DNA of 60,486 bases from contig JAIDQV010000032.1 of the NCBI GenBank assembly GCA_029062045.1, positions 1 through 60,486 of the forward strand. The letters are read 5' to 3'. The stretch is from Clostridia bacterium. Its GTDB lineage: Bacteria; Bacillota; Clostridia; Christensenellales; Borkfalkiaceae. A program made the translations under genes and the position numbers. The notes beneath the pieces were generated by a model, which was not told where the DNA came from, made no database searches, and worked only from the letters and a program-made list of their open reading frames with translations. Shown here one piece after another: positions 12,840-27,298 of the stretch; within the stretch, counting starts at the first letter, position 1; every line of letters starts with the position of its first letter.

Positions 12840-14000
12840 TTACTTCATATCTTTTGTCAAAGGAATATCACATTCTTCGATAGTAATCATCTCTTCTTCT
12901 GTAATATTTCCTTTATCCATAAGCCGCTGCGCCTGATGCGTAACAACCGCCTGGAAAGTGTTTCTTGCGGTACGGCCGTTACCGAAGTCTTTATCCCTCT
13001 TTTCATACAGTTCGGTAAATCTGTCCGTCATAAGTTTTTCGGCAGCCGCCGTAAGTTTATAATTATTCTTTTTGCACAAGCCGAAGAATATTTTATAAAG
13101 CTCGTCGGGCGTGTAATCCTCAAAGTCGATAACGGTATTGAACCTTGACTTTAAACCCGAGTTGGTGGCAATTAAGTCCGCCATAGGCTGAGAGTACCCA
13201 GCCATTATAACTACTAACTCGTTACGGTGGTCTTCCATTGCTTTAAGCACTGTATCTATAGCTTCCTGCCCGAAGTCGTTGCCGCTACTGTTGCCTTTGA
13301 GCATATACGCTTCGTCTATAAACAGAACGCCGCCAAGGGCCTTGTCTATGACTTCACGGGTTTTAGGTGCCGTCTGTCCGACGTAACCTGCAACCAAATC
13401 ATTGCGTGCGGTTTCTACAAGCTGACCCTTTTGCAAAATGCCGAGCGACCTGTAAATTTGCGCCATAAGTCTTGCAACGGTTGTTTTACCTGTACCGGGG
13501 TTGCCCGTAAATACCATATGATAAGAGAAGCCGTCGGGAACGGGCAAACCTTTTTCCTGCCTCAGCTTGAAAAACTTTACCTGGTCGACCCATGACGAAA
13601 CTTTGGCTTTAACGCCCGAAAGTCCTATAAGTCCGTTCAGTCTTGCCAAAGCCTCCTCAACGGAAAGCTGTTCAACTTCCTGTTCTTCCGCCTTGGCTTT
13701 GCTTTCAACCGCCTTTTGCGTGTTTGCCGCACCGCCTCTTGCGGGTTGACCGCCAGAAGTCACGCTAGTGCCGTTGCTCTTATTTGTTACCGGGCGCACG
13801 CCGTTCTCGGCTTTTTGCTCGCACTCTTCGGCCAAAGCAATATACTCGTTCTTTTTAGCCGGAAATGCCGCTGCCGCCTGCCTGTACTGCTTTGCCGCCG
13901 CCTTGTAAGACTGCACGGCGACAGACATCCCGCAGCTTGCCTGCTTTTCGGCTTTGTCGAGCATGGTTTTTGCTGCTAATAAGTAATAATCGGCATTCAT
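12840..14000 (-). CDS. AAA+ ATPase, CbbX/SpoVK/EccA-type, with N-terminal MIT/TPR-like helical domain
   Basis: Walker A FTGNPGTGKTTVAR; Walker B GGVLFIDEAY; sensor region VVIMAGY...LKSRF, characteristic of the CbbX/SpoVK clade. The N-terminal ~70 aa form a three-helix, Ala/Lys/Gln-rich segment. Confidence 0.8.
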   Translation of the reverse strand: MNADYYLLAAKTMLDKAEKQASCGMSVAVQSYKAAAKQYRQAAAAFPAKKNEYIALAEECEQKAENGVRPVTNKSNGTSVTSGGQPARGGAANTQKAVESKAKAEEQEVEQLSVEEALARLNGLIGLSGVKAKVSSWVDQVKFFKLRQEKGLPVPDGFSYHMVFTGNPGTGKTTVARLMAQIYRSLGILQKGQLVETARNDLVAGYVGQTAPKTREVIDKALGGVLFIDEAYMLKGNSSGNDFGQEAIDTVLKAMEDHRNELVVIMAGYSQPMADLIATNSGLKSRFNTVIDFEDYTPDELYKIFFGLCKKNNYKLTAAAEKLMTDRFTELYEKRDKDFGNGRTARNTFQAVVTHQAQRLMDKGNITEEEMITIEECDIPLTKDMK

Positions 14001-14007
14001 ATATCAC

Positions 14008-15513
14008 CTATTGCTGAATAAGTCCGAGGTCTTTTTCCAACGATTCGTATTTTGCCTCGTCCTTTTCTTCATTCATATCGGTATATGCCGCAGCCGCGCC
14101 CGCGAAAGTATTCATATTGATTTCCTCGCTGTCCGCTACTGCGCCCGCTACGCCTATCTCATCCAACTGCTCGTTGCTCTTTGCAACGGCTTCTTTAAGA
14201 TAGGTGGCAAGTCCCTGATAATCGGCAAACCGTCCGCCCGTCATCTGGTTTATCTTCATATTGGTAGCTTCGAGGTCTTGCTGAGTAGAGAGCTTGTCTA
14301 TAAGCAACAACTGCTCCTGCAAGGTAGATAACGCATTTCTGTAACGGCGGATAGAATACTGCACGCCGTTACGCTTTGCATTGAGCTGGTCAATCTGTCC
14401 GTCAAGTATAAGACAGTCGGAAGGTGAAGCCGTTTTACGTTTAATAAGTAAAGGCTTTAACTGTGCGTTCAAATCGTTGAGTTCGTCCTGAACGTCGTCT
14501 ATTTTATCATTGTAAGTATCGATGCTCTGCTGTAATGCCTGACGCGTTCTGTTAATGTCGTTAGCCATTTCCGCAGTGCCCATAACGCCGCCGAGTGCGG
14601 TTGCGCCGCCCATTGTCTGCGAAGTCGCCGCCGTTCCCGCCGTAGTAGTGGCAAACGGGTCGCCGAACGCGCCGAAAGCGTCACCCTCGGCAAACGGGTC
14701 ACCCAAAGCACCGAACGCACTGCCTGCGCCCAAAGCCGCCATATCCGCGGCAACCTGGCTCTGTTCTTCGGCTCTGCGCTGATTTGTTTCGGCAATATTT
14801 TCTCTGTAAACCTGCATCTGGTCGTCGCTTACGGTACGCCCGTTGACAAGCTCTGCATTTGTATTGTAGGTTTCCTCGAAAATGGTCGTAGTCTTTTCGC
14901 GTTCAAGCTCGGCCTGTAATCCGTTGAGCTTGTTGACGGTATTGGTTATCTCCATTTTGCATACGTTTGCCTGCGAAATGATAGACCTGTCGGTAGGGTT
15001 TGCGGCGTGTCTTTCACGGAGTTTTTCAAACGCCTTGTTCAAATCGGCGAGCTTTGCATTCTCCTCGTCGATTCTGTCCTGCAATTCTTCCGCACGGGAC
15101 TTTTCGTATGCGATGCCCTGCTTAGCCATTTTGCCAAGCGTTTTTTGTGCCTGTTGCTCGCGCTTTAAATCCGCTTTGGTTTTCTGTCCGCCCATTATGC
15201 AATAGCTCTGTCTTTCGGCAACCGCCTTTTTGATTTTTTCGAGCTTGTTTACAGCCGCCGTGGACTGCTGCTTGCTTAAACATACGCTTACTTCCTGTAA
15301 AAGCGAAAGAATAAGCGCGTCTAACTTCATTACCTCTTCCGAAGATGAATTGCCCTGATTTTGCATTTCAAGCTGAATATCTTTTAAGTATGAAGCAATT
15401 TCTCCGCCGAGACGGTTGCTCATAGTAAGCGCTGTTACGGTGGAAATAATTTGATTTTTATTGTATGTATTTGTTTCCTCTATCTTCTTTTTCTTATTAC
15501 CGAATAATCCCAT
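14008..15513 (-). CDS. Long coiled-coil protein, ESCRT-III/PspA-superfamily-like (two helical halves joined by a Gly/Ala-rich GDPFA-repeat linker)
   Basis: The N-terminus MGLFGNKKKK mirrors eukaryotic CHMP N-termini. Two heptad-rich halves flank the linker AFGALGDPFAEGDAFGAFGDPFA. The C-terminus is acidic and ends in an amphipathic helix, EAKYESLEKDLGLIQQ. Confidence 0.5.
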   Translation of the reverse strand: MGLFGNKKKKIEETNTYNKNQIISTVTALTMSNRLGGEIASYLKDIQLEMQNQGNSSSEEVMKLDALILSLLQEVSVCLSKQQSTAAVNKLEKIKKAVAERQSYCIMGGQKTKADLKREQQAQKTLGKMAKQGIAYEKSRAEELQDRIDEENAKLADLNKAFEKLRERHAANPTDRSIISQANVCKMEITNTVNKLNGLQAELEREKTTTIFEETYNTNAELVNGRTVSDDQMQVYRENIAETNQRRAEEQSQVAADMAALGAGSAFGALGDPFAEGDAFGAFGDPFATTTAGTAATSQTMGGATALGGVMGTAEMANDINRTRQALQQSIDTYNDKIDDVQDELNDLNAQLKPLLIKRKTASPSDCLILDGQIDQLNAKRNGVQYSIRRYRNALSTLQEQLLLIDKLSTQQDLEATNMKINQMTGGRFADYQGLATYLKEAVAKSNEQLDEIGVAGAVADSEEINMNTFAGAAAAYTDMNEEKDEAKYESLEKDLGLIQQ

Positions 15514-15527
15514 AATTCAACTCCTTA

Positions 15528-16424
15528 TTAAGATAATTTCTTGCCGCATCCGGGGCAGAACTGAACTTGACTACTTAACTTTGCACCGCATCTGGGGCAA
15601 TACTGCACGGGCTGGTTGATACCTGCATTACCCGCGTTTTGATTAGCGTTTTGCGCGGGGGCCTCGGTTGAAGGCGCCGTAGGCATACCGCCTATAAGCG
15701 AATTGAGCGCGTCTATTTCCGCACGCTGGGCACGTTCCTTTTCACGCCTGTCCAATTTTTCTTCTTTTCTACGGTTTTGGTTATCGAAGTACTCGGTGCG
15801 CTTATTCTTGTACTCTTCGTTAAAGAAAATTTGCTTTAACGAGAAATCCTCAACGCCGACGCCGTAGTTTGAAAAGGCTTCTGACAAAATTTTTGTAAGC
15901 GCGGTCGATATAAGCGATAACTGGGTATTTACCGTCTGATAGTCGTACTTTTGTAAAACCTCAGCAAGCCTTGTGGTCATTACCTCGCAAGTTTTACTTC
16001 TTATGTACTCGTCTATATCGTCAACGGTAATATCCGTTTTACCCAAATTGGTATAAAGCGCCCAGGGCTGGTTTATTCTTATTCTGAGGTGTCCGTTCAA
16101 GCCGACTGCCGTTTCGCAATTCAGTTCAAAATCCTTGAAAGGAATACCGCCTACTCCGCAGGGTATATCGTAAGTTTTGTCGGCGTTTACACCGATAAGC
16201 TGTAAGCTGTACCCGAACTTTTCTTCTTCCTTGGATTTTACTATCCAGCGTCCGGGAGTGTTTACGGATTTAAGCCCGCCGTTTACTATGTAAATTCCGA
16301 GACAGCCGGGTGCGACTTCCAACGTGGTATCGCGTACGGCAGATGTTAAGTCAATATTCCACATAACGTATTTGTCGCTTGCGGAGATGATGATGTTTCT
16401 TAATTTTTCGCTTTTTCCGAACAT
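15528..16424 (-). CDS. SPFH/Band-7-like protein with C-terminal double zinc ribbon (B. subtilis YdjI / COG4260-like)
   Basis: The N-terminal ~200 aa have the YdjI-like beta/alpha domain layout. This is followed by a charged coiled coil (RRKEEKLDRREKERAQRAE), a low-complexity Q/N/A linker, and YCPRCGAKL...FCPGCGKKLS. Confidence 0.65.
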   Translation of the reverse strand: MFGKSEKLRNIIISASDKYVMWNIDLTSAVRDTTLEVAPGCLGIYIVNGGLKSVNTPGRWIVKSKEEEKFGYSLQLIGVNADKTYDIPCGVGGIPFKDFELNCETAVGLNGHLRIRINQPWALYTNLGKTDITVDDIDEYIRSKTCEVMTTRLAEVLQKYDYQTVNTQLSLISTALTKILSEAFSNYGVGVEDFSLKQIFFNEEYKNKRTEYFDNQNRRKEEKLDRREKERAQRAEIDALNSLIGGMPTAPSTEAPAQNANQNAGNAGINQPVQYCPRCGAKLSSQVQFCPGCGKKLS

Positions 16425-16436
16425 ATTTAAGCTCCT

Positions 16437-17606
16437 TTAATTATTTATTCTTTCAAGTACGTTTTTAATATAAATTGCGGGAACACACATCGCTATGCCG
16501 CCCTCGCTTTTTCCGGGATAAAAAGTTATGACGCCTATCACGTTATTTGCCGCGTCTAAAAGCGCGCCGCCCGAATTTCCGTGGTTTACCGTCATATCCG
16601 TCTGAATTACGAAATCTACGTTTTTAGGATAATCGGTTTTACGGTTGGGACTTGACACGACGCCCTTGGATACGCTTAAACCTATTCCTAGGGGATTGCC
16701 CACGGTATAGACTTCTTCACCGAACGTAACCCCTTCCGTTCTCAGCGAAAGCAATTTGCGGGAAGAAAGCGCTTCGCCGATATTCCCTGTGAAGCACAGA
16801 ACGGCGATGTCAAGTTCGGGCAAGATTGCAAGCGGCATAAGATTATACGTCCGTTTGTCTATACTCGGCTCAAAATTTGCCTCTATGCACTCGGGGGATT
16901 CCCCTACGACGTGCGCATTTGTAATAACGTAACCACCCTGCACCAAAAAGCCCGAACCTTTGCTCAGCATTTTGTTGCGCCCCGACTTAAATACGGCGTT
17001 TATCGAAAGTATGGAAGGCAAAACCTCTTTTACCCTTTCAACGAAACTTCCGCCCTCTGCGGGAAGCTGGATATTACGGTTTTCGCTTACAAAGTCGTTA
17101 TTTCTCTCTGCGTCGCGGGTGTTTATTTTCAAACTGTTATAATCGTAACCCGTACCGCTTGCGCCCACAGACAAGTTTTGCGGCGCATCACCGCCCCAGT
17201 TCTCCGTCTGTAACTTTATACGGCTTGCGGCGTGCCCTGCGTCTGCGGCGATTTTTAACCATTTATGTGCCGTAAGACGGTCGGGCGGGTTGCTGTTTAA
17301 GCAAATTTCGGCATATTTGTACATGCCGTCGGGGTATCCGCGGAAAGCAAGCACCCTGTAAATTTCTTCGACTTCGCCGGGTGCGGAGCTTACCAAGCCC
17401 TGTTCTTTACCTAATGCCACACGGTACAAAACGGCATTGTCCAAAAAGGACGAGTATTTCAAAAATACCGAACATCCGCCGTTTTTCGTATCCCCTGCCT
17501 CGATTTCCGTGTTTTGCGCGGCAACGGAGGTCAACTTTTCACCGCAATAACGGCAAAAGTTGTCTTCGTCGGGGGATTGCTTGTTACACTTTACACAAAT
17601 TTTCAT
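16437..17606 (-). CDS. Zn-ribbon + Sel1-like repeat + trypsin-like (S1C/HtrA-type) serine protease, no PDZ
   Basis: N-terminal CVKCNKQ...FCRYCGEKL. Sel1-like segment YKYAEICLNSNPPDRLTAHKWLKIAADAGHAAS. Catalytic triad context ITNAHVV / LDIAVL / GNSGGALLD. Confidence 0.8.
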   Translation of the reverse strand: MKICVKCNKQSPDEDNFCRYCGEKLTSVAAQNTEIEAGDTKNGGCSVFLKYSSFLDNAVLYRVALGKEQGLVSSAPGEVEEIYRVLAFRGYPDGMYKYAEICLNSNPPDRLTAHKWLKIAADAGHAASRIKLQTENWGGDAPQNLSVGASGTGYDYNSLKINTRDAERNNDFVSENRNIQLPAEGGSFVERVKEVLPSILSINAVFKSGRNKMLSKGSGFLVQGGYVITNAHVVGESPECIEANFEPSIDKRTYNLMPLAILPELDIAVLCFTGNIGEALSSRKLLSLRTEGVTFGEEVYTVGNPLGIGLSVSKGVVSSPNRKTDYPKNVDFVIQTDMTVNHGNSGGALLDAANNVIGVITFYPGKSEGGIAMCVPAIYIKNVLERINN

Positions 17607-17618
17607 AATTTACCTGCC

Positions 17619-18755
17619 TCAACGGTCGTTCTTTTGTGATTTTAACCGTTCGGATACGTATGCGGTGACAACGGAATTTAAGTCCGAACCGTCTTTTATG
17701 CCCGCTTTTACTCCGGCTACGTAATATTTAAAGTCGTCGCAAATATAAGTTATAGACCTTCCGCTAAGCCCGTCCGACATATCGGCTAAGTACTCGAAAT
17801 CCAGCTTTTCCTTATATTCGTCTTCAAGCTCCGCAAGTTTGGATTTGAAAAAGCTCAACCTCATATTTTTATCGGGAAGGGGTATGTGAATACGCTTTCT
17901 GAACCTGTCCAAAATGCCGACGTCAAGAAGCTCCATACAGTTTGTGTTGGCAAGTATTAGAAAGGACTTGTTCTGTTTAATGCCGTCCATATTTCTTAAA
18001 AGTGCGGGAACCGCCGAAGCCGAGGCTTTGTCGTCACTGCCGCGCTGTTTTGCTATTTCGTCGAATTCGTCGAAAAATACGGTCAGCCCGCATTTGTTTT
18101 TTTCGGAATAGGAACGGAGCGCAGCAAACACTTTATCGATATTTTTTGCGGTTTCACCAACGTAACAGTTTACAAGCGCGGCTACGTTTACAAGCACGAA
18201 GGGCTGGTTTATTTCCTTTGCAACAGCCTTTGCAAACGTTGTTTTACCCGTGCCCGGAGGGCCCTCTAAAAGAATAGCCTTGTTATCGTTGAATTTATAG
18301 TTGTAATAATCGCCGTAGCGCAAAGGATTAATTACGTATTCCGTAACAGACTCTTTTGCGCTTTCAAGACCTATTACGCCTTCAAAGCCCTGTTCGAGTT
18401 CGTCGGCTTTATAAAACGTAAAGTATTCTTCCATACCTTCGGTATCAACGTCCTGGCTTTCGGTAGCGCAATCGTCGTCTTTATGCTGTACGGTTGGAAC
18501 GGCGCTCTGTCTTACCGGGGTTTGGTTATTAGCCGTAACCGTTATAGCCGCCGCGATAGCTTTAAGCCTTTGGGCGCGGCTGTTCAGTTCGGCCGCTTCC
18601 GCCCCGCTTTTACGCATAGAAAACTGTTCGAGATAGAACGCCGCCTGTTCAAACTTTTTCTTTGCCGTCGCAAGGTTGCCGTACTGCTTTGCCTTTAAGG
18701 CTTCGTCATAGTTTGTTTTAAAATTACCGTATAAGTATTCGTCGGATAAAGCCAT
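17619..18755 (-). CDS. MIT-like domain + classical AAA+ ATPase (Vps4-like architecture)
   Basis: N-terminus YDEALKAKQYGNLATAKKKFEQAAFYLEQF...AELNSRAQRLKAIAAAI resembles the Vps4 MIT three-helix pattern. Walker A LEGPPGTGKTTFAKA; Walker B VFFDEFDE; SRH-like ANTNCMELLDVGILDRFRKRIHIPLPD. Confidence 0.65.
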   Translation of the reverse strand: MALSDEYLYGNFKTNYDEALKAKQYGNLATAKKKFEQAAFYLEQFSMRKSGAEAAELNSRAQRLKAIAAAITVTANNQTPVRQSAVPTVQHKDDDCATESQDVDTEGMEEYFTFYKADELEQGFEGVIGLESAKESVTEYVINPLRYGDYYNYKFNDNKAILLEGPPGTGKTTFAKAVAKEINQPFVLVNVAALVNCYVGETAKNIDKVFAALRSYSEKNKCGLTVFFDEFDEIAKQRGSDDKASASAVPALLRNMDGIKQNKSFLILANTNCMELLDVGILDRFRKRIHIPLPDKNMRLSFFKSKLAELEDEYKEKLDFEYLADMSDGLSGRSITYICDDFKYYVAGVKAGIKDGSDLNSVVTAYVSERLKSQKNDR

Positions 18756-18770
18756 TTCAGCCTCACTTGA

Positions 18771-20369
18771 TTATTTGTCGTTTTCACTCTTCCATTCGTT
18801 GAGTTTTATAATATCTTCGGCCTGTACAGACGAGTGAATGACTTGAAGCGCTTCTTCAAAATCCTCACCCGATATGTATTTTTCCTGCGTTTTTATTCCG
18901 CGGATTATGGATATTTCCTCTATCCTGTCAAGAAGGTTGGTTATATCCGAGCCGTTAAATCCGTTTGTCTTTTCAACGATTTCGCCCAGGTTTATATCGT
19001 CCCTTACCGCAACCACGCCTTTTTCCGTAATTTTTACAAGGCGCTTATTTATCATATACTCTCTTGCGGGTGCGTCGGGAAGTCCGACGTAAATTTTGGT
19101 GCCGAAGCGTCCCGGTCTTAAAAACGCACTGTCTATATCCCAAGGTTTGTTAGTTGCGGCAATCAAGAAAAGAATGTTGCCCGTATCTTTTTTATAACTG
19201 TCTATACCTTGCAACTGCGCCAAAAATTCCGAACGCAACTGTTTTGCATACTGCGACTTAGTCGACTTGGGCGAAATAGAATCCATTTCGTCAAAATATA
19301 TTACGGCGCAGGGGAACTCTCTTGCCTGTGCAAACAGCGCGCGTACTGCCTTTTCGGTATTGCCAGCGCCCTGGTGCAGTAGGTCGGACGGCTTAACCGA
19401 ACAGAATTTTGCGCCTATTTCGTTTGCTATTGCCGCGGCAATCATGGTTTTGCCCGTTCCGGGAGGGCCGTAAAGGCACAAACCGCCGCCGTTCTTCTTT
19501 TCGTAGCCCTCGAATGCCTGAGGGTTTTTTAGGGGAAGCAATACCTTCACTTCCACTACTTCTTTGACTTGTTCGAGGCCTGCAATATCCTCAAACCTAA
19601 TTGAGGGAAGGCTGTCCCAGTTGAATTTAAACTCGGAAGACGCCCCCGCATCCCCGTTAACAAATTTGTCCTCGGGCGTTTCTGCGGGCGTGTTCGGCTT
19701 ATTCTCGGGTTTGGGACGCACAGTCGTAGCGGGCACAGGTGCAGGTGCGGGCGTAACCCCCTCTACTTGGGGTTGGCGGGTTGGCGTTTCCACCTGCGGC
19801 TGAGCTGCGGCAAACTCTTTTTCGAGTGCGGCAAGGGTGTCGTCCATTTGCAAGCTGTCACGGGAAATCTCGTCGTTTAAAAGCTCGCGGACGTCATCGT
19901 CGCTTATATCGGACACCGAATCCACACTGCTTGAAAACGCACTGTTGTTATTTTTTAACGCCTGTTGAAGCTGAGCCGAAGTGATACTCTGCTGATACAG
20001 CGCCTTCATAAACATCTTTTCGCTGTTGCTTACGTGTATAGCCTTGCAGGTCTTATATACGTTTTCCATAACGCTGTCAAGCGAGTTGACAAACTTCTTG
20101 TTAAGGTGCTGCATTTCGCACAAATCCTTTGCAATAGTAAAGTTTGCAACCATATCTTCCGCCTGTGCAAGGTTAAACATTGCGTTTTTAAGTAAAGCAA
20201 CCATAGCTTTATACTGCGATTCGTTGCCCTTCTTTAATGCCTCTTTGGCCTTTTGCGCGTACTCGTCCCTCTTCCTGGTCAAGGTCACGATAGCACCGTT
20301 CAAAGCGCGCATCGTTTCTTCCTGCTCGCGTTTCAATTTTAACTGTTTCTTAAAATCACGAAATCCCAC
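18771..20369 (-). CDS. ESCRT-III/Snf7-like N-terminal domain fused via Pro-rich linker to classical AAA+ ATPase
   Basis: Residues 1-190 are paralogous to the 189-aa ORF upstream (IVTLTRKRDEYAQKAKEALKKG vs VVTLTKKRDAAFAMVLEARQKG). Pro-rich linker TPAPAPVPATTVRPKPENKPNTPAETP. AAA: LYGPPGTGKTMIA, VIYFDEMDS, SRH ATNKPWDIDSAFLRPGRFGTKIYVGLPD. Confidence 0.65.
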   Translation of the reverse strand: MGFRDFKKQLKLKREQEETMRALNGAIVTLTRKRDEYAQKAKEALKKGNESQYKAMVALLKNAMFNLAQAEDMVANFTIAKDLCEMQHLNKKFVNSLDSVMENVYKTCKAIHVSNSEKMFMKALYQQSITSAQLQQALKNNNSAFSSSVDSVSDISDDDVRELLNDEISRDSLQMDDTLAALEKEFAAAQPQVETPTRQPQVEGVTPAPAPVPATTVRPKPENKPNTPAETPEDKFVNGDAGASSEFKFNWDSLPSIRFEDIAGLEQVKEVVEVKVLLPLKNPQAFEGYEKKNGGGLCLYGPPGTGKTMIAAAIANEIGAKFCSVKPSDLLHQGAGNTEKAVRALFAQAREFPCAVIYFDEMDSISPKSTKSQYAKQLRSEFLAQLQGIDSYKKDTGNILFLIAATNKPWDIDSAFLRPGRFGTKIYVGLPDAPAREYMINKRLVKITEKGVVAVRDDINLGEIVEKTNGFNGSDITNLLDRIEEISIIRGIKTQEKYISGEDFEEALQVIHSSVQAEDIIKLNEWKSENDK

Positions 20370-20382
20370 GGTATTTCTCCCT

Positions 20383-20952
20383 TTAATTTTTCAGTTTGGT
20401 TCTGTCGCCCGTAGCCGAAGCAAACAGCGCAGCCTCGTCCAGCATAGAATCTATCTCGCTATCGAATTCACTGTAATCGTCCTGGCCTATCGACGCCGCG
20501 GCACTATATTCGCCTACCGATAACATTCTGTCGATATTCTCTTTCTGACGCTCGGTTTCGTACATAGCGTGCATGTACTTGTTTTCAACCTGCTTTATGT
20601 TTGCGGTGTGTCTGCTCGCGCTGATAATATCCTCGGAGAGTATACCTATGCTGTTTAAGAAGTTTTGGTTGAGCTCTGCCAAATCGCGTGACTGAACGGC
20701 AAGTTCCATTGTCATAAGCATTCCTTCGGCACGTTTGCAAGCCGCCATAGTCTGCTTTAACAGTCCGCGCGCCTGCTTTTCCTGGGCTTCAAGTCCCTTT
20801 TGGCGCGCCTCCAAAACCATTGCAAAAGCCGCGTCCCTCTTTTTGGTGAGGGTTACCACTTGCAACTTCAAGTCCTTCGTAACCTTCTCAATCCTTGCGC
20901 GGCGCTCGGTTTCTATTTCTTCCTTCGTCTTCTTGTTTTTTTTGCCGAACAT
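20383..20952 (-). CDS. ESCRT-III/Snf7-like (PspA-superfamily) small coiled-coil protein
   Basis: 189 aa. MFGKKNKK N-terminus, a basic N-terminal helical hairpin and an acidic C-terminal tail (DDYSEFDSEIDSMLDEAALFA). The residue pattern is colinear with yeast Snf7 alpha1-alpha3, from my recollection of that sequence. Confidence 0.6.
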   Translation of the reverse strand: MFGKKNKKTKEEIETERRARIEKVTKDLKLQVVTLTKKRDAAFAMVLEARQKGLEAQEKQARGLLKQTMAACKRAEGMLMTMELAVQSRDLAELNQNFLNSIGILSEDIISASRHTANIKQVENKYMHAMYETERQKENIDRMLSVGEYSAAASIGQDDYSEFDSEIDSMLDEAALFASATGDRTKLKN

Positions 20953-20955
20953 ATC

Positions 20956-21459
20956 TCAGTCCCCTTTTAAAATGGTATTTTCTGTCTCGCACATAAGCGC
21001 GTAAATTTTCTGTGTTTCACGGATGATATCCACCGTAACGGAGATATCCGAGCCTAAACCGTGCGCTATACTGTTGCGCATAGAAACAATGTTTCTAATG
21101 GATTTAAGCTGCTGCCCGTCTATAATTCCAAGTTCAAGCGCCCGCTTCCCCCAGCAAACGGCGTTGCCGTCCACAAGCGCTTTCGATTTTTCGTTGAGCG
21201 CGCTGACGTTATCCAAAAATATCAGCACGAGTTTGTCGTTTTCGGGTTCAACCGTTTTAGGTGCCTCCGGAATTTCGTTCCGAACGGGCGGGCTGTCAAG
21301 AACGGGGGCTGAAAAATCCTCTTGTTCTTTAACAGGTTTTTCGGGTTGTTTTTTGACGTCCTCACTCTTCACCGTTCGGCAATAGCGGCATACGGTTACG
21401 CCGTTAAGAAGAATAAAATCTTCACCTCCGCAATTCGGACATACTGATGTATTTTTCAT
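20956..21459 (-). CDS. Zn-ribbon protein with C-terminal HEPN-like (DUF4145-like) domain
   Basis: N-terminal CPNCGG...CRYCRT, an acidic/Pro linker, and a C-terminal helical domain with an Rx4H motif (MRNSIAHG). Overlaps the upstream HAD gene by 4 nt (ATGA). Confidence 0.5.
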   Translation of the reverse strand: MKNTSVCPNCGGEDFILLNGVTVCRYCRTVKSEDVKKQPEKPVKEQEDFSAPVLDSPPVRNEIPEAPKTVEPENDKLVLIFLDNVSALNEKSKALVDGNAVCWGKRALELGIIDGQQLKSIRNIVSMRNSIAHGLGSDISVTVDIIRETQKIYALMCETENTILKGD

Positions 21460-22220
21460 AATTTAACTTGACCTAAAATTTCCCCCACGCTTTTTATTAC
21501 GAACTGCGGAAAGTTTCCGCACCCGTAAAATACGGTTTTTAAATCTTCGGGAAAGTATTTTTTTAATCTTTCGTGCGCCACGGCATAATCGGCTTTACTA
21601 AGCATATTCACGTCGGCGTCGCTATCGCCCGCGGCGATTGTAATTTTATTGTTAAGTCTTGCCTTTATAAGCCGCACCGCCTCTCCTTTGTCCGCAACCT
21701 GCGGATAAAAATAAACTTTCTTGCCGGAGGCAACGCACGCCAAACTACCGTTTTGCCCAAAGTCGCAAACAAATTTTTGCGCGCCTTCGGCGGTTTTACA
21801 ATTTACCTGTATATATCTTTTATCAACTATCTTAACACTGTACTCGGTTTGGCTTAATAAGCGACCGTATAAAGCTAAAATTTCTTCGTTAAACGGCTTG
21901 TATATCCTATCGTAAATTTTCTCCCACTCTCCGTCTGCGGTGCCGTTTACCAAAAGGCGCGCGCCGTTTGCCACAAGCGCATAATTTATCTCAACGCCTT
22001 CCGCCCATTTTATCCGTTTGAACTGCTCTTCCGAGCGGGTGGTCAGCGGAATAAATTCCACCTTTCGGGAAAGCCCGCAAAGTCCGTTATACACTTCGGG
22101 CGGCATATAGCCGTGCTGCTTTCCGTCAATTATTTCAACGCAAACATCTCCCTCGTTTTTATGACGGAAAGAGTATAACAGCGTATCGTCCAAGTCGCAC
22201 AAAAACAGAATATCTTTCAT
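21456..22220 (-). CDS. HAD-superfamily phosphatase (Ter-cluster associated type)
   Basis: Motif I FLCDLDDTLL (DxDxT); late motif AAGDSDADVNM (GDxxxD). Confidence 0.8.
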   Translation of the reverse strand: MKDILFLCDLDDTLLYSFRHKNEGDVCVEIIDGKQHGYMPPEVYNGLCGLSRKVEFIPLTTRSEEQFKRIKWAEGVEINYALVANGARLLVNGTADGEWEKIYDRIYKPFNEEILALYGRLLSQTEYSVKIVDKRYIQVNCKTAEGAQKFVCDFGQNGSLACVASGKKVYFYPQVADKGEAVRLIKARLNNKITIAAGDSDADVNMLSKADYAVAHERLKKYFPEDLKTVFYGCGNFPQFVIKSVGEILGQVKL

Positions 22221-23270
22221 CTAAATATCCGAAATTTTTTGTATTATTCCGCATGCTTTATAATTTTTGAGTGGATACTCTTCTACCGTTACGCCCTTCT
22301 CTTCGGCAAGAGTGTATATGTGTCCGAGATGCGGAAAGTCGTCTAAACTATGCACAAGCATTTTCCCGGGCACTCTTCTAAGTAACACGCGGGTTGCCTC
22401 GCCAATGCTAGGCTTTACCAGGTTTACGTCGTCTATGCCAAAGTCTTTGCAAATGCGGCTAACCTCTTCCAAACCCGAAACACATTCGCACTTTTCTTCT
22501 TCACAGGGGGCGCCGAAATCAAAATACTTTTCAACGGTATCTATAAACCCGTACGTCCTGTCCTTGTCTTTAAGGTGCGAATAAAAAGCCGCGCCGTGAA
22601 AATCCTTTTCACCTATCAAATCGCTGCGCAATACCGTTCGGCTCAAAAGTCCGGACACCGTGCAGTTTAACAGCGAGCTTGCAATTAAAAAATCTTCGTG
22701 CGTGCCGCAAATCTCTGCCGCAAAGGCAGGGTCGGACAACACCGCAAGCCCAGCGTTTAAACCTTTATAACCGTTTACCGCCTTTTTAACCTCGCGTGCG
22801 ATTACGCCCTTGCCCGTCCAGCCGTCTACAAATCTTACGTCTTTTGCGCTATGTCTTTCTAGAATATAATCCAATGCGTTTTTATCTATTCCCCTGTCGC
22901 GGATAATGGAAATAGTGTAATGGGGTACGCATAAATTATATTTTTTATCTAAGTATCTCTTTAATAAAATGCCTATCGGCGTTCCCGCTCTTGCAAGGGA
23001 CACGAGAACGACGTTGTTTCCGTGGAATTTTAATATTTTTTCGGCAGCCGTTCCTACGGCTTGCGCGGTTATCGGGGCGTAACGTTTCAACGCTTCTTCA
23101 TACACTTTTACATACTGTGCGCTAGGTTCGTACTCCAAAGGCAAAGTTTCGGAATAGTGCAGTCCGCCCTGTATAAGCCGCTCTCTTTCATCCGTGCTGA
23201 GCGGTTTTAATTGTCCCGTAATATCTTTTAATAAGATATTAACGTCGTCCTTTTTATAGCTCGAAAACAT
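22221..23270 (-). CDS. PRTase-like protein of the Ter-associated 'StiP' family
   Basis: VVLVSLARAGTPIG and RFVDGWTGKGVI resemble a PRPP-binding loop. The gene is adjacent to a second PRTase, HAD and CitE-like genes, as in ter-linked biosynthetic modules. Confidence 0.6.
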   Translation of the reverse strand: MFSSYKKDDVNILLKDITGQLKPLSTDERERLIQGGLHYSETLPLEYEPSAQYVKVYEEALKRYAPITAQAVGTAAEKILKFHGNNVVLVSLARAGTPIGILLKRYLDKKYNLCVPHYTISIIRDRGIDKNALDYILERHSAKDVRFVDGWTGKGVIAREVKKAVNGYKGLNAGLAVLSDPAFAAEICGTHEDFLIASSLLNCTVSGLLSRTVLRSDLIGEKDFHGAAFYSHLKDKDRTYGFIDTVEKYFDFGAPCEEEKCECVSGLEEVSRICKDFGIDDVNLVKPSIGEATRVLLRRVPGKMLVHSLDDFPHLGHIYTLAEEKGVTVEEYPLKNYKACGIIQKISDI

Positions 23271-23271
23271 A

Positions 23272-24399
23272 TTATCCTTTTACCAAAACAAAGCGTTTTG
23301 TGCCGCAACTGCCGAAAATTTTAATTATATCTTTAAGCGCCGACTCTACATCGCTTTCGGAATCGGTAACTATTACGGCAACATCGTAATATTCGGGATT
23401 GTAGATAAACGTCGCCCTATGTTTGTCGTAAAACCCCGAAAGTCCGTATCCGCCAAATATCGGATAATCTTCTTTTTCGGAAACTGCGATGGGGCTTCTC
23501 GTCGTCGAATGGCTCTTTACACTTTTTAGGGGATAATTGCGCTCAATCTCCGCACCGAAAATTATTGCAGGATACATACATTCCTCGGTACCCAAAACGA
23601 GAATTTTTTCAGCCGAATTTAACTCTTTTGCAAGTTCGTCCAAAAGTCCTTCAGATATGTTTTTAAGCGTTTTTTCGTACTCTGAAGCCTCAACGCCCAG
23701 TCTGGGGTCGGGCAAGGGCCGGGGTGTGTTTATAATTTTGACGTCGGCGGCACATTCGGGCAATTCTGCCGCAATTTTCGGCGCAGTGGCCGAAACGCTT
23801 TCGACTTCCGAAGAATAATCGGAAAAAGGAAGTTTTAAAAGGCTTACGCATTCTATTCCTTTTTCGGCAAGGCGCGCCTCGTTTTCAGCCGAAATCCTGT
23901 CAATTACGCTTGCGGCGATTATCCTTTTCTTCGCCGCCGTAGGGAATTCTTTGATAAGTTTATCAATTATATTGATAAGCGTTTTACCCGTCGTGAACTC
24001 GTCGTCGACGAATATCAATTTGTCCGCGTTATCTATATACTTTGCAATATCTCTTTTTAAAAGTTTTTGTTCCACCGCGTGGCTATGCTCTTCGGAAAAG
24101 TCTAAAAAAGGCTCGCCCTCTTCGCGCTCGCGCGTGGTATGAATATAATCGCAACCGCACAGTACAGCTACTGCCGCCCCTATTGCCGTTGCCGTTTCGG
24201 CAAAGCCTATTACTAAACCGCCCTGCCCGTATTTGCTCTTGATTATTGCGCCAAACGCGTTCATCATATCAAGCGCTTTTAAAGGGCTTACGGGTATATG
24301 CTTTGCCTGCAAGGTGTTCACCAACAGATAGGTGCGTTTTGCGTTGTTGTATCTCTTTGCTATTCTCAAAAGAGTTTTCGCGGAATATTCTTCGTTCAT
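23272..24399 (-). CDS. Phosphoribosyltransferase-family protein with C-terminal Ter-associated (TRSP-like) domain
   Basis: PRPP-binding motif KLIFVDDEFTTGKTL, with a ~200-aa C-terminal extension. Confidence 0.75.
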   Translation of the reverse strand: MNEEYSAKTLLRIAKRYNNAKRTYLLVNTLQAKHIPVSPLKALDMMNAFGAIIKSKYGQGGLVIGFAETATAIGAAVAVLCGCDYIHTTREREEGEPFLDFSEEHSHAVEQKLLKRDIAKYIDNADKLIFVDDEFTTGKTLINIIDKLIKEFPTAAKKRIIAASVIDRISAENEARLAEKGIECVSLLKLPFSDYSSEVESVSATAPKIAAELPECAADVKIINTPRPLPDPRLGVEASEYEKTLKNISEGLLDELAKELNSAEKILVLGTEECMYPAIIFGAEIERNYPLKSVKSHSTTRSPIAVSEKEDYPIFGGYGLSGFYDKHRATFIYNPEYYDVAVIVTDSESDVESALKDIIKIFGSCGTKRFVLVKG

Positions 24400-24400
24400 T

Positions 24401-25360
24401 TCAATCTTTTATGCCGTAAATCTCGGACAGAATAAGTATCCGCTCCGCCCACTTATAATGGCACTTAACTTCGTTCATTCTGTCACCGGAGCTGCTTTTT
24501 TCCACTCCGAATCCGCCGCGGTCCCAGTTTAATATGCTCTTTGCATCGTTGAAATCTTCACGGCGCACTTTAAGACTTTCATAAATATATCTGAGCTGAC
24601 AGGGATGTATAGCCGTTTTACCGATAAAGCCGTTAAGCCTGTCCAATTCCAGCTCCCTTTCAAGCCCCTTTGCCCACGCGCCGTCATCTGCCCCGAAATA
24701 TTCCCATACCGGTCCGGAAATTATATATTTATCCGAAAATACGTTTATAATGTCGGACAGCACGCCGCTTAAAACGCAAACGTCGTACACGGTTTTGTCA
24801 ATCGGCCGTCTCAATCCGAAAATATTGCTGAAATCGTTTACGCCTACGCGTACGTTGAGGATATATTCGGACACGTCCGCCAATACCTCTTTAATTTTTA
24901 AAAGGCGTTCCCTGCGCGTCACTATGCCGGCAACCCCGGGACTTTCGATAATTGGCATAAAATATACCCGCAAGTCGGAATTGCTGTTGATGCTTAAAAT
25001 AATATTTTTATACTCGTCAGCGTCGGGAAAATCGAATTTAGGTAAAATATACCCCGTCAATATATCCGAAACGCCGTTCAAAAACGCGTGAACGTGTTGC
25101 AAGTGCCTAGGGCTTCTCACCCGCACGAAAAGCAGCACGTCTTTGCGGTTTAACCCTGCATTTTTTAACTCTGTTAAAGTACTTAAAAGCTGCTTCTCCG
25201 CCTCTTCGACAGCATCGTCCGCAATCGAATCTTCAAGGCAAAAACAAACAGAAGTCAACGCCTGTATTTCTTTGTTTATTATTTTTTTAGCAACTCCCTT
25301 TCTTAGGGCAGGCACATATAAAAGTCCTCCGACCTTGTAGGCAAGATAATCTTTATCCAC
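24401..25360 (-). CDS. HpcH/HpaI aldolase / citrate-lyase beta (CitE)-like C-C lyase
   Basis: GGLLYVPA...VCFCLEDSI matches the CitE N-terminal pattern (LFVPG...DLED). Other motifs: IESPGV, GVNDFS, AIHPCQ. Confidence 0.7.
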   Translation of the reverse strand: MDKDYLAYKVGGLLYVPALRKGVAKKIINKEIQALTSVCFCLEDSIADDAVEEAEKQLLSTLTELKNAGLNRKDVLLFVRVRSPRHLQHVHAFLNGVSDILTGYILPKFDFPDADEYKNIILSINSNSDLRVYFMPIIESPGVAGIVTRRERLLKIKEVLADVSEYILNVRVGVNDFSNIFGLRRPIDKTVYDVCVLSGVLSDIINVFSDKYIISGPVWEYFGADDGAWAKGLERELELDRLNGFIGKTAIHPCQLRYIYESLKVRREDFNDAKSILNWDRGGFGVEKSSSGDRMNEVKCHYKWAERILILSEIYGIKD

Positions 25361-25375
25361 TAACCTTTTCCCCTG

Positions 25376-27278: not shown

Positions 27279-27298
27279 TGTCTTAGGATATAACTAAA

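What the first reader, a model, noticed from the sequence alone, without database searches (positions are those of the whole stretch)
18771..20369. Covalent fusion of an ESCRT-III-like domain to a classical AAA+ ATPase
Residues ~1-190 align by eye with the upstream 189-aa protein:
- IVTLTRKRDEYAQKAKEALKKG / VVTLTKKRDAAFAMVLEARQKG
- LLKNAMFNLAQAEDM / LLKQTMAACKRAEGM
- LNKKFVNSLDSVMENV / LNQNFLNSIGILSEDI

A Pro-rich linker (nt ~19665-19800) joins this domain to an AAA+ module with Walker A/B and a second region of homology (ATNKPWDIDSAFLRPGRFGTKIYVGLPD). In canonical systems, the polymer subunit (ESCRT-III) and its disassembly ATPase (Vps4) are separate proteins that meet through MIT-MIM contacts. 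A substrate::remodeller fusion would be an unusual wiring.
Basis: partly seen in the sequence, partly recalled or inferred. Interest (0 to 1): 0.8.

Follow-up and report, generated by a model that had tools for sequence, protein, structure and literature searches.

The report
Bacterial ESCRT-III-like protein fused to AAA ATPase
A gut Clostridia operon encodes two distant relatives of the membrane-remodelling ESCRT-III proteins, one fused through a floppy linker to an AAA ATPase, next to a separate Vps4-like ATPase, a pairing that reviews describe as apparently absent from bacteria.

Summary
Window 18771-20369 (-) is one intact 532-aa ORF. It has a ~186-aa helical N-domain, a Pro-rich linker and a complete classic AAA module. 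The N-domain is a paralogue of the upstream 189-aa ORF (BLASTP E=9e-13).

The fusion is not a frameshift artefact. Full-length fused orthologues occur in four other species-level genomes and in metagenomes.

The N-domain family is a divergent ESCRT-III (Snf7-branch) family:
- At least 259 cluster representatives belong to it.
- 16 of 110 members hit Pfam Snf7, and no other family recurs.
- The family profile's best solved-structure hits are CHMP2A, CdvB2 and CdvB.
- The AF2 model's top Foldseek hits are nearly all ESCRT-III superfamily proteins.

The "substrate::remodeller" reading is only partly supported, for three reasons:
- The gene sits in a conserved seven-gene cassette. That cassette already has a separate MIT-like::AAA protein with a canonical pore loop, which is the better Vps4 analogue.
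- The fused AAA lacks the aromatic pore-loop residue.
- In sister loci the same ESCRT-III-like paralogue is fused to RuvB-nuclease or FtsK motors instead, or stands alone.

Most likely the ESCRT-III-like domain tethers an exchangeable ring-ATPase effector to a membrane polymer. The mechanism is inferred, not shown.

The parts
18771..20369 (-). Whole 532-aa ORF ('B::AAA'): ESCRT-III-like domain, Pro-rich linker and classic AAA module
   Evidence: Fused orthologues.
19812..20369 (-). N-domain (residues 1-186). Divergent ESCRT-III/Snf7-like domain, paralogue 'B' of the upstream 189-aa protein.
   Evidence: Family HMM E=2.6e-55. AF2 model has pLDDT 77, with a hairpin of helices 3-47 and 50-102 plus helices 125-152 and 157-189. 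Foldseek top hits are CHMP2A/3, CHMP1B, Vipp1, Asgard ESCRT-IIIB, PspA, CdvB and Shrub. The family profile's best solved-structure hit is CHMP2A at E=5.6e-4. 16 of 110 members hit Pfam Snf7.
19803..19847 (-). Conserved terminal helix of the B domain, MDDTLAALEKEFAAA (residues 175-189). Candidate MIM-like docking motif (inferred).
   Evidence: 'DDxLxxLEKEF' is conserved at the C-terminus of free B proteins and before the linker of fused ones. MIT binding was not tested.
19680..19802 (-). Pro/Ala/Thr-rich flexible linker (residues 190-230)
   Evidence: Composition. Length varies among orthologues: Walker A lies at residue 300 to 435.
19653..19679 (-). Conserved 'TPEDKFVNG' motif that opens the AAA module
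   Evidence: A 'PE(D/E)xxL' motif precedes this AAA module in homologues of all four N-terminal types where the N-terminal stretch is visible.
18774..19661 (-). Classic AAA module. Walker A at nt 19446-19469, pore loop 1 (LLHQGAGNTEK, no aromatic) at 19350-19382, Walker B at 19281-19304, sensor 1 at 19140-19160, second region of homology at 19074-19139, C-terminal helix at 18774-18833.
20383..20952 (-). Free ESCRT-III-like paralogue 'A' (189 aa)
   Evidence: BLASTP against the N-domain E=9e-13. Family HMM E=1.4e-50. An orthologue lies immediately upstream of B in all 14 related loci. A-type proteins are never fused to an ATPase.
17619..18755 (-). MIT-like::classic AAA (378 aa), the Vps4-like candidate
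   Evidence: The AF2 model of the N-terminus has pLDDT 85.7 and is a three-helix bundle. The Foldseek top hit is the Sulfolobus CdvC MIT domain 2w2u, followed by MIT domains of VPS4A, VPS4B, spartin and MITD1. 4 of 35 members hit Pfam MIT. The pore loop is CYVG and the second region of homology is LDVGILDRFRKRIHIPLPD. VPS4B 2zam aligns over residues 15-341. An orthologue is present in every locus.
16437..17606 (-). Zn-ribbon + Sel1 + trypsin/HtrA-like serine protease (389 aa)
   Evidence: Conserved in the cassette.
15528..16424 (-). SPFH/Band-7 (Band_7 and Band_7_1) + C-terminal Zn-ribbon (298 aa)
   Evidence: Conserved in the cassette.
14008..15513 (-). 501-aa coiled-coil protein with an MGLFGNKKKK N-terminus and no family assignment
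   Evidence: Conserved in the cassette. Not detected by the ESCRT-III-like family HMM.
12840..14000 (-). MIT-like::SpoVK/CbbX-type AAA (386 aa)
   Evidence: NCBIfam spore_V_K 276 bits, EccA and CbbX; Pfam AAA_lid_6. The N-terminus is related to the 378-aa protein's MIT-like domain (hhalign 95.9%, E=5e-9). In L011, L012 and L014 this protein carries a C-terminal FtsK motor.
20956..21459 (-). Zn-ribbon + HEPN-like protein (167 aa) directly upstream. Link to the cassette is uncertain.
   Evidence: Pfam HEPN_MAE_28990 E=7e-5, below the cut-off. Relatives lie upstream of the cassette in L004 and L006.

Best explanation
The 532-aa protein is subunit 'B' of a two-paralogue, ESCRT-III-like (Snf7-branch) polymer system of gut Clostridia.

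Shown here:
- Its N-domain is a divergent ESCRT-III-type helical-hairpin domain, paralogous to the free 189-aa subunit 'A'.
- It is joined by a flexible linker of variable length to a catalytically complete classic AAA module.
- The gene belongs to a conserved seven-gene cassette: A, B (with or without an ATPase), MIT-like::AAA, Zn-ribbon/Sel1/trypsin protease, SPFH/Zn-ribbon, a ~500-aa coiled-coil protein, and MIT-like::SpoVK-type AAA.
- The ATPase attached to B is exchangeable. It is a classic AAA here, RuvB plus a TnsA-like nuclease or FtsK in other lineages, and absent in others.

Inferred:
- A and B co-polymerise at the membrane, near the SPFH protein.
- The B domain acts as a tether. It concentrates its ATPase module on the polymer, so that ring assembly, and therefore ATPase activity, depends on polymerisation.
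- The neighbouring MIT-like::AAA, which has a canonical pore loop, is the Vps4-like enzyme. It docks on the conserved C-terminal helices and recycles the polymer.
- The fused AAA is therefore a polymer-displayed effector or co-factor rather than the primary disassembly enzyme.
For: Paralogy of A and B.

The fusion is intact and orthologously conserved:
- L004-L007 carry fused proteins of 545-667 aa.
- P0013 (587 aa), P0024 (575 aa) and P0154 are also fused.

ESCRT-III affinity:
- P0029's N-domain matches Pfam Snf7 over profile positions 4-151 of 171.
- 16 of 110 members hit Snf7, and no other family recurs.
- The family profile's top solved-structure hits are CHMP2A (E=5.6e-4, near full length), CdvB2 and CdvB.
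- The AF2 model has an ESCRT-III-like helix layout, and the top 17 Foldseek hits are almost all ESCRT-III superfamily proteins.

Cassette: conserved across 11 GTDB species genomes plus metagenome contigs. Gaps between genes are 0-15 nt.

Payload pattern:
- In the 11 related loci long enough to show it, plus the window, each cassette carries one payload (the short contigs L001-L003 cannot show this). It is a classic AAA on B (window, L004-L007), RuvB-TnsA-like on B (L008-L010), or FtsK on the SpoVK-type AAA (seen in L011, L012 and L014; L013 ends before that gene).
- ATPase fusions occur only on B-type or unassignable N-domains, never on A-type ones.
- Payload types are interleaved along the N-domain tree.

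A separate Vps4-like candidate exists, with an MIT-like fold and a canonical pore loop.

The fused AAA orthogroup lacks the pore-loop aromatic residue in 108 of 120 homologues; the other 12 did not match the search pattern.

The linker length varies about three-fold.

Precedent for an SPFH link: B. subtilis YdjI is required to localise PspA (quoted in PMC10936438).
Against: - No step of polymerisation, membrane binding or MIT docking was tested.
- The ESCRT-III assignment rests on convergent but individually weak signals. Pfam hits are below the gathering score, the best Foldseek E-value is 0.014, and the window protein alone has no Snf7 hit.
- In 66 of the 120 closest homologues of the fused AAA module, the module carries an MIT-like N-domain.
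- The activity of an AAA ring without an aromatic pore loop is unknown.
- The NJ tree of a short helical domain is weak evidence for payload swapping.
Confidence: 0.5

Rival explanations
1. Self-remodelling subunit. The fused AAA is a Vps4 analogue whose MIT-MIM docking has been replaced by a covalent link. Once hexamerised on the polymer, it extracts or unfolds ESCRT-III-like subunits, either its own N-domain or neighbouring A and B subunits.
For: - The same AAA orthogroup usually has an MIT-like N-domain (66 of 120).
- In L017 and L018 such a gene follows a free ESCRT-III-like gene, overlapping or with a 1-nt gap.
- Pfam Vps4_C hits above its cut-off.
- The CdvC model scores 163 bits over nearly its full length.
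- Walker A, Walker B, sensor 1 and the Arg fingers are all intact.
Against: - Pore loop 1 has no aromatic residue across the orthogroup: QGAG, QGVG or GGIG. From established knowledge of Vps4 (not tested here), ESCRT-III translocation uses an aromatic residue at this position.
- The second region of homology is of the RPGRFG type seen in Cdc48, FtsH and PAN, not the RRRF type of Vps4.
- A canonical MIT-like::AAA is always encoded alongside.
- B is alternatively fused to DNA motors.
- The C-terminal helix also aligns with p97 D2.
Confidence: 0.25
2. Mixed or stacked ring. The fused AAA (non-aromatic, like p97 D1) and the 378-aa AAA (aromatic, like D2) assemble into one hetero-oligomeric or double-ring machine. 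The ESCRT-III-like domain of B anchors the composite machine to the polymer.
For: - At least two kinds of classic AAA co-occur in all 12 loci where this AAA orthogroup was seen: the window, L004-L007 and L015-L018.
- Natural SpoVK-AAA::AAA tandem fusions exist, for example P0160, P0161, P0166, P0169 and P0173.
- The pore-loop dichotomy fits this arrangement.
Against: This is purely architectural inference; nothing on hetero-oligomerisation was computed. Loci where B is free or carries RuvB or FtsK still keep the 378-aa-type AAA, so that protein can work without this partner.
Confidence: 0.12
3. The N-domain is a generic coiled-coil oligomerisation domain, not a true ESCRT-III homologue, and the similarity is compositional.
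For: - Neither the window's N-domain nor the 189-aa ORF has any Pfam, NCBIfam or PDB sequence hit.
- All Foldseek E-values exceed 0.01, and global RMSD is large.
- AF2 confidence is low for residues 101-127.
Against: - Snf7 is the only Pfam family hit by more than one member (16 of 110), and the alignments are near full length.
- The three best PDB sequence hits of the family profile are all ESCRT-III proteins.
- ESCRT-III superfamily structures dominate the Foldseek ranking, with hairpin RMSD of 1.3-2.0 Å.
- The context contains MIT-like AAA and SPFH partners.
- The 501-aa coiled-coil protein in the same operon gives no such hits.
Confidence: 0.1
4. The fusion is a sequencing or assembly frameshift artefact that joins two genes.
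For: One close relative (L002, Logan contig) has a 7-nt indel at the linker/AAA junction that breaks the frame. P0008 is similarly disrupted. L003 stops after the linker, at the contig end.
Against: The ORF is intact in the window and in at least seven independent assemblies: L004-L007, P0013, P0024 and P0154. The conserved PEDxxL junction motif is in frame in each.
Confidence: 0.02

Closest known systems
Archaeal Cdv / ESCRT-III + Vps4 (CdvB paralogues + CdvC)
   Same: - Several ESCRT-III-type paralogues are encoded next to an MIT::AAA ATPase.
- The family profile hits CdvB2 and CdvB.
- The best structural match of the 378-aa protein's N-terminus is the Sulfolobus CdvC MIT domain bound to ESCRT-III (2w2u).
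   Different: - The host is bacterial (Clostridia).
- There is no CdvA and no ESCRT-II-like winged-helix protein.
- One ESCRT-III-like paralogue is covalently fused to a ring ATPase.
- The extra partners are SPFH, a trypsin protease, a coiled-coil protein and a SpoVK-type AAA.
- Sequence similarity is only at the remote-homology level.
Eukaryotic ESCRT-III/MIT interaction network (Vps4, spastin, katanin-like and calpain-7 recruited to ESCRT-III tails; PMC9477494)
   Same: The logic is a polymer that serves as a platform to bring AAA ATPases and a protease to a membrane site. Several different MIT-like enzymes sit in one system.
   Different: Here recruitment is partly hard-wired by gene fusion. 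The payloads include the DNA motors RuvB and FtsK and nucleases, which has no eukaryotic counterpart that I know of.
Bacterial PspA/Vipp1/LiaH systems, including B. subtilis PspA-YdjGHI (SPFH- and Zn-ribbon-dependent)
   Same: These are bacterial members of the ESCRT-III superfamily with SPFH and Zn-ribbon partners. Vipp1 and PspA structures are among the Foldseek hits.
   Different: No member hits Pfam PspA_IM30; the signal is to the Snf7 branch. PspA systems are reported to lack a Vps4-like ATPase (PMC7619361). The reported PspA fusions are to NlpC/P60 and PspAA, not to ATPases (PMC11237479).
FtsK/SpoIIIE architecture (localising N-domain, Pro/Gln-rich linker, hexameric motor)
   Same: The three-part layout is the same, and some family members carry a true FtsK α/β motor.
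   Different: The localising module is a soluble ESCRT-III-like domain instead of transmembrane helices.
IetAS anti-phage system (AAA ATPase IetA + protease IetS)
   Same: PADLOC IetA models are the best defence-library hits for both classic AAAs, at 107.7 and 147.7 bits. A serine protease gene is adjacent.
   Different: NCBIfam IteA scores are 96.6 and 138 bits, far below the 510-bit cut-off. The protease here is trypsin/HtrA-like. The cassette has five further conserved genes.
Ter-type (TerD / PRTase / StiP / HpcH) stress-response gene clusters
   Same: In the window the cassette is contiguous with TIR-TerD, two TerD genes, StiP-PELOTA, a PRTase, HpcH and HAD genes. The link partly recurs in L003 and L005.
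   Different: Most related loci (L007-L014) show none of the window's Ter-type genes (HAD, StiP-PELOTA, PRTase, HpcH, TIR-TerD) within 10 kb, so the association is facultative.

Membership tests
ESCRT-III superfamily (Snf7/CHMP/CdvB branch) | Sequence-profile match to the Snf7 family (Pfam PF03357) | tested here: inconclusive
   The window's N-domain and the 189-aa ORF give no hit. At family level, 16 of 110 members hit Snf7 at E<=0.01 (best 9.9e-7), and no other family recurs. P0029 scores 24.5 bits against a gathering score of 27.3, over profile positions 4-151 of 171.
ESCRT-III superfamily (Snf7/CHMP/CdvB branch) | Similarity to solved ESCRT-III proteins at sequence-profile level | tested here: met
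   The A3 profile against PDB sequences gives CHMP2A 7zcg_B at E=5.6e-4 (profile 5-148 against chain 2-141), CdvB2 at E=0.04 and CdvB at E=0.37 as ranks 1, 2 and 4. A designed protein is rank 3.
ESCRT-III superfamily (Snf7/CHMP/CdvB branch) | Fold: long α1-α2 hairpin followed by shorter helices α3-α5 | tested here: met
   The AF2 model has helices 3-47 and 50-102 (pLDDT above 90 for residues 1-70), then 125-152 and 157-189. The top 17 Foldseek hits are almost all ESCRT-III superfamily proteins. The hairpin superposes on Shrub and CHMP3 at 1.3-2.0 Å. No E-value is below 0.01.
ESCRT-III superfamily (Snf7/CHMP/CdvB branch) | Polymerisation on membranes | not testable with these tools
   Only inferred, from paralogue pairing, the SPFH neighbour and the basic MxFxxKK N-termini.
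ESCRT-III superfamily (Snf7/CHMP/CdvB branch) | C-terminal MIM that binds an MIT domain | not testable with these tools
   A conserved terminal helix 'DDxLxxLEKEF' exists. MIT-like domains are encoded nearby. No complex prediction was available.
Classic AAA clade | Walker A, Walker B, sensor-1 Asn, and second region of homology with Arg fingers | tested here: met
   GPPGTGKT, VIYFDEMD, AATNKPW and DSAFLRPGRFG are present. Pfam AAA E=6.5e-33. PDB hits to p97/VAT have E~1e-80, and katanin E=2e-43.
Classic AAA clade | Pore loop 1 with the aromatic-hydrophobic-Gly motif | tested here: not met
   The window has H-Q-G-A-G. The 120 closest homologues have QGVG, GGIG, QGAG and similar, with no aromatic in the 108 that matched the pattern. 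The neighbouring 378-aa AAA has CYVG.
Vps4 / meiotic-clade AAA | N-terminal MIT domain | tested here: not met
   In this protein the ESCRT-III-like domain occupies the N-terminus. 66 of the 120 closest AAA homologues carry a helical domain related to the MIT-like domain of the 378-aa protein (hhalign 90%, E=1.5e-6).
Vps4 / meiotic-clade AAA | Vps4-type C-terminal helix (Pfam Vps4_C) | tested here: inconclusive
   Vps4_C scores 22.6 bits against a cut-off of 21.3 and is precomputed on many homologues. The same helix aligns equally well with p97 D2 and with katanin.
Vps4 / meiotic-clade AAA | Phylogenetic placement within the clade | not tested
   No reference sequence set was available. NCBIfam scores are nearly tied: CDC48 168.7, PAN 163.8, CdvC 163.3 and FtsH 153.4 bits, all far below their cut-offs. 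The RPGRFG motif resembles Cdc48, FtsH and PAN (own knowledge of those motifs).
IetAS defence system | IetA equivalog score | tested here: not met
   NCBIfam IteA_antiphage scores 96.6 bits for this protein and 138.4 bits for the 378-aa protein, against a cut-off of 510. The PADLOC hits are domain-level only.

The most novel reading that the evidence does not exclude
Gut Clostridia carry a true Snf7-branch ESCRT-III + MIT::AAA (Vps4-type) machine. On this reading the machine works as a membrane-sited deployment platform. Polymerisation of the A and B subunits at a damaged or invaded membrane patch would assemble and switch on B-tethered ring motors: an AAA, a RuvB-nuclease or an FtsK. These would act on incoming DNA or proteins. 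The whole would be a modular anti-phage or anti-conjugation (or envelope-stress) system, wired here to Ter/TIR-TerD nucleotide signalling. It would also mean that the ESCRT-III/Vps4 partnership is not restricted to archaea and eukaryotes.
Probability: 0.25. Interest if true: 0.9.

Novelty: new variant of a known kind. Interest (0 to 1): 0.75.

Why it matters
A 2025 review states that a Vps4-like ATPase "appears absent in bacteria" (PMC7619361). A 2024 survey describes the Snf7 branch as predominantly archaeo-eukaryotic. It reports PspA/Snf7 fusions only to non-ATPase domains such as NlpC/P60, PspAA or an RND transporter (PMC11237479).

This locus belongs to a widespread cassette with at least 259 cluster representatives of the ESCRT-III-like family and at least 263 orthologues of the MIT-like AAA. 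It pairs Snf7-like proteins with MIT-like AAA ATPases in bacteria. It also shows a wiring I found nowhere in the searchable literature: an ESCRT-III-type subunit covalently carrying a ring ATPase, with AAA, RuvB-nuclease and FtsK as interchangeable payloads.

If confirmed, it gives three things:
- A tractable bacterial model of how ESCRT-III and AAA ATPases are coupled.
- A natural experiment on tethered versus MIT-docked ATPases.
- A possible new class of membrane-associated stress or defence system in the human and animal gut microbiome.

Tried and rejected
1. Direct Pfam, NCBIfam and PADLOC scans of the N-domain and the 189-aa ORF gave no informative hit.
2. The first word-indexed homologue search found only 7 short proteins. 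That wrongly suggested a tiny family. The exhaustive representative search was needed.
3. The shallow profile A1 against PDB gave no ESCRT-III hit. Only the 110-sequence profile did.
4. The profile of the 378-aa protein's N-terminus against PDB sequences found no MIT domain. The MIT assignment rests on fold and 4 weak Pfam hits out of 35 members.
6. The frameshift-artefact hypothesis was rejected, although L002 and P0008 are disrupted at the junction.
7. I tested whether the 501-aa coiled-coil protein is a third ESCRT-III-like protein. The family HMM did not support it.
8. The cassette shows no mobile-element or phage origin. There were no matches in the phage records, the plasmid records or IMG/VR.
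9. The class-iii N-terminal domain of related AAAs is not related to the MIT-like domain. The class-iv domain is not detectably related to the SpoVK-type AAA's N-terminus.
10. A true AAA phylogeny against Vps4, katanin, FtsH and Cdc48 was not done, because no reference sequences could be imported. HMM scores and motif comparison were used instead.
11. The 2012 paper on Ter-dependent systems (Anantharaman, Iyer and Aravind) could not be retrieved. A prior mention of this cassette there cannot be excluded.
Full report
**1. The observation**

The ORF at 18771..20369 on the minus strand is continuous and encodes 532 aa. It starts at GTG, 13 nt after the stop of the upstream 189-aa ORF, with AGGGAG about 8 nt upstream.

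BLASTP of residues 1-204 against the 189-aa ORF aligns residues 27-154 with residues 32-172.

Residues 190-230 form a Pro/Ala/Thr-rich linker, as described. The C-terminal 290 residues are a complete classic AAA module:
- Pfam AAA E=6.5e-33, plus AAA_lid_3 and Vps4_C just above its cut-off.
- Walker A and B, the sensor-1 Asn, and a second region of homology with both arginines are present.

**2. Is the fusion real?**

Yes. A scan of one genome per GTDB species returned 11 loci, all from gut Clostridia MAGs.
- In four of them (L004-L007) the orthologue is a single ORF of 545-667 aa with the same N-domain, linker and AAA order.
- Metagenome proteins P0013 (587 aa), P0024 (575 aa) and P0154 are also fused.
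- The linker length varies about three-fold: Walker A lies at residue 300 to 435. That is what a flexible tether would show.
- One Logan contig (L002) has a 7-nt indel at the linker/AAA junction that breaks the frame. P0008 is similarly disrupted. These may be assembly errors or decay, and they are the minority.

**3. What is the N-domain?**

The window protein and the 189-aa ORF have no Pfam, NCBIfam or PDB-sequence hit on their own. An exhaustive profile search found 259 cluster representatives at E<=1e-3. Four independent family-level signals point the same way:
- The N-domain of P0029 matches Pfam Snf7 over 148 of 171 profile positions, at 24.5 bits against a gathering score of 27.3.
- 16 of 110 members hit Snf7 at E<=0.01 (best 9.9e-7). 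Every other family is hit by at most one member.
- The 110-sequence profile searched against all PDB sequences ranks CHMP2A first (E=5.6e-4, near full length), CdvB2 second and CdvB fourth.
- The AF2 model (pLDDT 77) has a long α1-α2 hairpin followed by two further helices. Its top 17 Foldseek hits are almost exclusively ESCRT-III superfamily structures: CHMP2A/3, CHMP1B, Vipp1, Asgard ESCRT-IIIB, PspA, CdvB and Shrub. Hairpin RMSD is 1.3-2.0 Å, although no E-value is below 0.01.

I conclude that this is a divergent ESCRT-III family, closer to the Snf7/CHMP/CdvB branch than to PspA. No single test is individually strong.

**4. The surroundings**

The gene is the second of a conserved seven-gene cassette. 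The 11 related loci long enough to show it carry it in the same order and orientation; L013 ends within its fifth gene, L008 and L010 have a 378-aa-type AAA as the last gene, and the short contigs L001-L003 show only its first genes:
- A, a free ESCRT-III-like protein (189 aa here).
- B, the ESCRT-III-like protein with or without an ATPase.
- An AAA of about 375 aa.
- A Zn-ribbon/Sel1/trypsin-like protease.
- An SPFH(Band_7)/Zn-ribbon protein.
- A coiled-coil protein of about 500 aa.
- A SpoVK/CbbX-type AAA.

In the window the genes from 12840 to 27247 are separated by 0-15 nt.

The 378-aa AAA is the better Vps4 analogue:
- Its N-terminus models confidently (pLDDT 85.7) as a three-helix bundle.
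- The best structural match is the Sulfolobus CdvC MIT domain in complex with ESCRT-III (2w2u). MIT domains of VPS4A, VPS4B, spartin, MITD1 and NRBF2 follow.
- MIT is the only Pfam family hit by more than one member, 4 of 35.
- It has a canonical pore loop (C-Y-V-G) and a second region of homology, LDxGILDRFRKRIHIPLPD, that resembles Vps4.
- phmmer aligns VPS4B colinearly from residue 15 to residue 341.

The SpoVK-type AAA carries a related MIT-like N-domain (hhalign 95.9%, E=5e-9). One caveat applies: alignment A6 contains one sequence of that type.

**5. The fused AAA module**

NCBIfam scores are nearly tied between CDC48 (168.7), PAN (163.8), CdvC (163.3) and FtsH (153.4). Two features stand out across its 120 closest homologues:
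- Pore loop 1 has no aromatic residue (QGAG, QGVG or GGIG).
- The second region of homology is D(P/S)AFxRPGRFG. From my knowledge of those families, this is the Cdc48/FtsH/PAN type, not the RRRF type of Vps4.

The C-terminal helix that triggers the Vps4_C hit aligns equally well with katanin and with p97 D2. Clade membership is therefore unresolved.

The same AAA orthogroup (60-91% identity) occurs with four different N-terminal modules, all joined through a conserved PE(D/E)xxL motif:
- An MIT-like domain in 66 of 120 (hhalign against the 378-aa protein's domain 90%, E=1.5e-6).
- An unrelated helical domain in 27.
- A SpoVK-type AAA in 5.
- The ESCRT-III-like domain.

In L017 and L018 the MIT-like version directly follows a free ESCRT-III-like gene. 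This is the 'split' counterpart of the window's fusion, and it links this AAA functionally to ESCRT-III-like proteins.

**6. Exchangeable payloads**

Among the family representatives the ESCRT-III-like domain is N-terminally fused to three kinds of ring ATPase:
- Classic AAA.
- RuvB-like (RuvB_N, lid and RuvB_C), with a TnsA-like endonuclease or a NERD domain.
- FtsK/SpoIIIE (α and β domains).

Fusions occur only on B-type or unassignable N-domains, never on A-type ones.

Each cassette long enough to judge carries one payload:
- AAA on B in the window and in L004-L007.
- RuvB-nuclease on B in L008-L010.
- FtsK fused to the SpoVK-type AAA where B is free (L011, L012 and L014; L013 ends before that gene).

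Payload types are interleaved along an NJ tree of the N-domains (weak evidence).

DNA motors cannot be remodellers of their own N-domain. The common denominator is that the B domain, or an MIT-like domain, brings a ring motor to the same place.

**7. Mechanism**

Shown:
- The domain composition, the paralogy, the conservation of the fusion and the cassette, and the payload variability.
- The pore-loop contrast between the two classic AAAs.

Inferred:
- A and B co-polymerise on the membrane near the SPFH protein.
- B's linker displays its ATPase. Because AAA, RuvB and FtsK all need ring assembly, polymerisation would gate their activity.
- The 378-aa MIT-like AAA recycles the polymer through the conserved C-terminal helices, 'DDxLxxLEKEF' in B.
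- The protease and the coiled-coil protein regulate or scaffold.

I give this 0.5. A mixed or stacked ring with the 378-aa AAA gets 0.12. 'Not ESCRT-III at all' gets 0.1, and an artefact gets 0.02.

**8. Comparison with the known**

The closest systems are the archaeal Cdv/ESCRT-III-Vps4 system, the eukaryotic ESCRT-III/MIT network, and bacterial PspA with its SPFH partner YdjI.
- A 2025 review says a Vps4-like ATPase appears absent from bacteria.
- A 2024 survey reports horizontal transfers of Vps4-like ATPases into bacteria in which snf7 is displaced. It also reports occasional PspA or Snf7 operons with AAA+ proteins, but no ESCRT-III::ATPase fusion.
- Full-text searches found no description of this cassette.
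- I could not read the 2012 Ter-systems paper.

In the window the cassette is contiguous with a Ter-type cluster: TIR-TerD, TerD x2, StiP-PELOTA, PRTase, HpcH and HAD. This link recurs only partly elsewhere. There are no relatives in the phage, plasmid or IMG/VR collections.

**9. Verdict**

The finding is real and unusual. It is best filed as a new variant of ESCRT-III/Vps4-type systems: bacterial, Snf7-like, and with a polymer subunit covalently carrying an exchangeable ring ATPase. The specific 'substrate fused to its remodeller' reading is possible but is not the best-supported one.

Noticed in passing
window 21456-31327 (- strand): A Ter-type stress or defence cluster lies directly upstream in the same orientation, with 0-56 nt gaps. 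It contains a HAD hydrolase, StiP cysteine protease + PELOTA, a PRTase, an HpcH-like aldolase, Zn-ribbon::TIR::TerD (623 aa), two TerD proteins and a P-type cation ATPase. It may be co-transcribed with the ESCRT-III-like cassette.
   Followed up: partly
window 48004-57623 (GC 0.29-0.40): A low-GC defence island holds a Shedu SduA_C protein (48004-49182), DUF6119 (49300-50880) and a Type III restriction Res subunit with an endonuclease domain (51923-54994). The adjacent ORFs were not examined.
   Followed up: partly
window 20922-20952, 20339-20369, 16395-16424, 15484-15513; orthologues in L004-L014: Four cassette proteins begin with a similar short basic motif: A with MFGKKNKK, B with MGFRDFKK, SPFH with MFGKSEK, and the coiled-coil protein with MGLFGNKKKK. 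The motif recurs in the A, SPFH and coiled-coil orthologues (MFGSKKNKK, MGIFSHKTK, MGLFGKNKN). It recalls the MGLFGK membrane-insertion N-terminus of CHMP proteins (own knowledge). It may be a shared membrane anchor or recognition tag.
   Followed up: partly
L011:15354-18071, L012:12226-14952, L014:8811-11531; P0160, P0161, P0166, P0169, P0173: Where B is unfused, the MIT-like::SpoVK-type AAA carries a C-terminal FtsK motor (~905 aa). In other genomes the SpoVK-type AAA is fused to the same classic AAA module as in the window. The payload therefore moves between carriers within the system.
   Followed up: partly
L002:1440-1580; P0008; L003:1050-1763: Several close relatives are interrupted exactly at the linker/AAA junction. 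L002 has a 7-nt indel, P0008 has a frameshift after 'FNWENLPS', and L003 has a stop after the linker. These could be assembly errors, pseudogenes or real on/off variation of the payload.
   Followed up: partly
L016:4284-15314; L017:7381-19648; L015:78-8640: More distant Firmicute loci combine ESCRT-III-like genes with two or three classic AAAs, SPFH, trypsin proteases and very large TIR/LRR/Sel1 proteins (up to 2127 aa). This suggests a much broader and more varied superfamily of such systems.
   Followed up: partly
P0171-P0200 (N-terminal ~85 aa): A second N-terminal helical domain (consensus ...LEKLLxLLKxDYDxGINRExNGKAFNALLKVRKEL...) precedes the same AAA module in 27 of 120 homologues. It has no Pfam hit and no relation to the MIT-like domain.
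   Followed up: partly
window 36630-41036 (- strand): Three consecutive large ORFs (703, 227 and 536 aa) have no Pfam hit at E<=1e-5. They sit between GH32/PfkB/ABC sugar-utilisation genes and ABC permeases.
   Followed up: no
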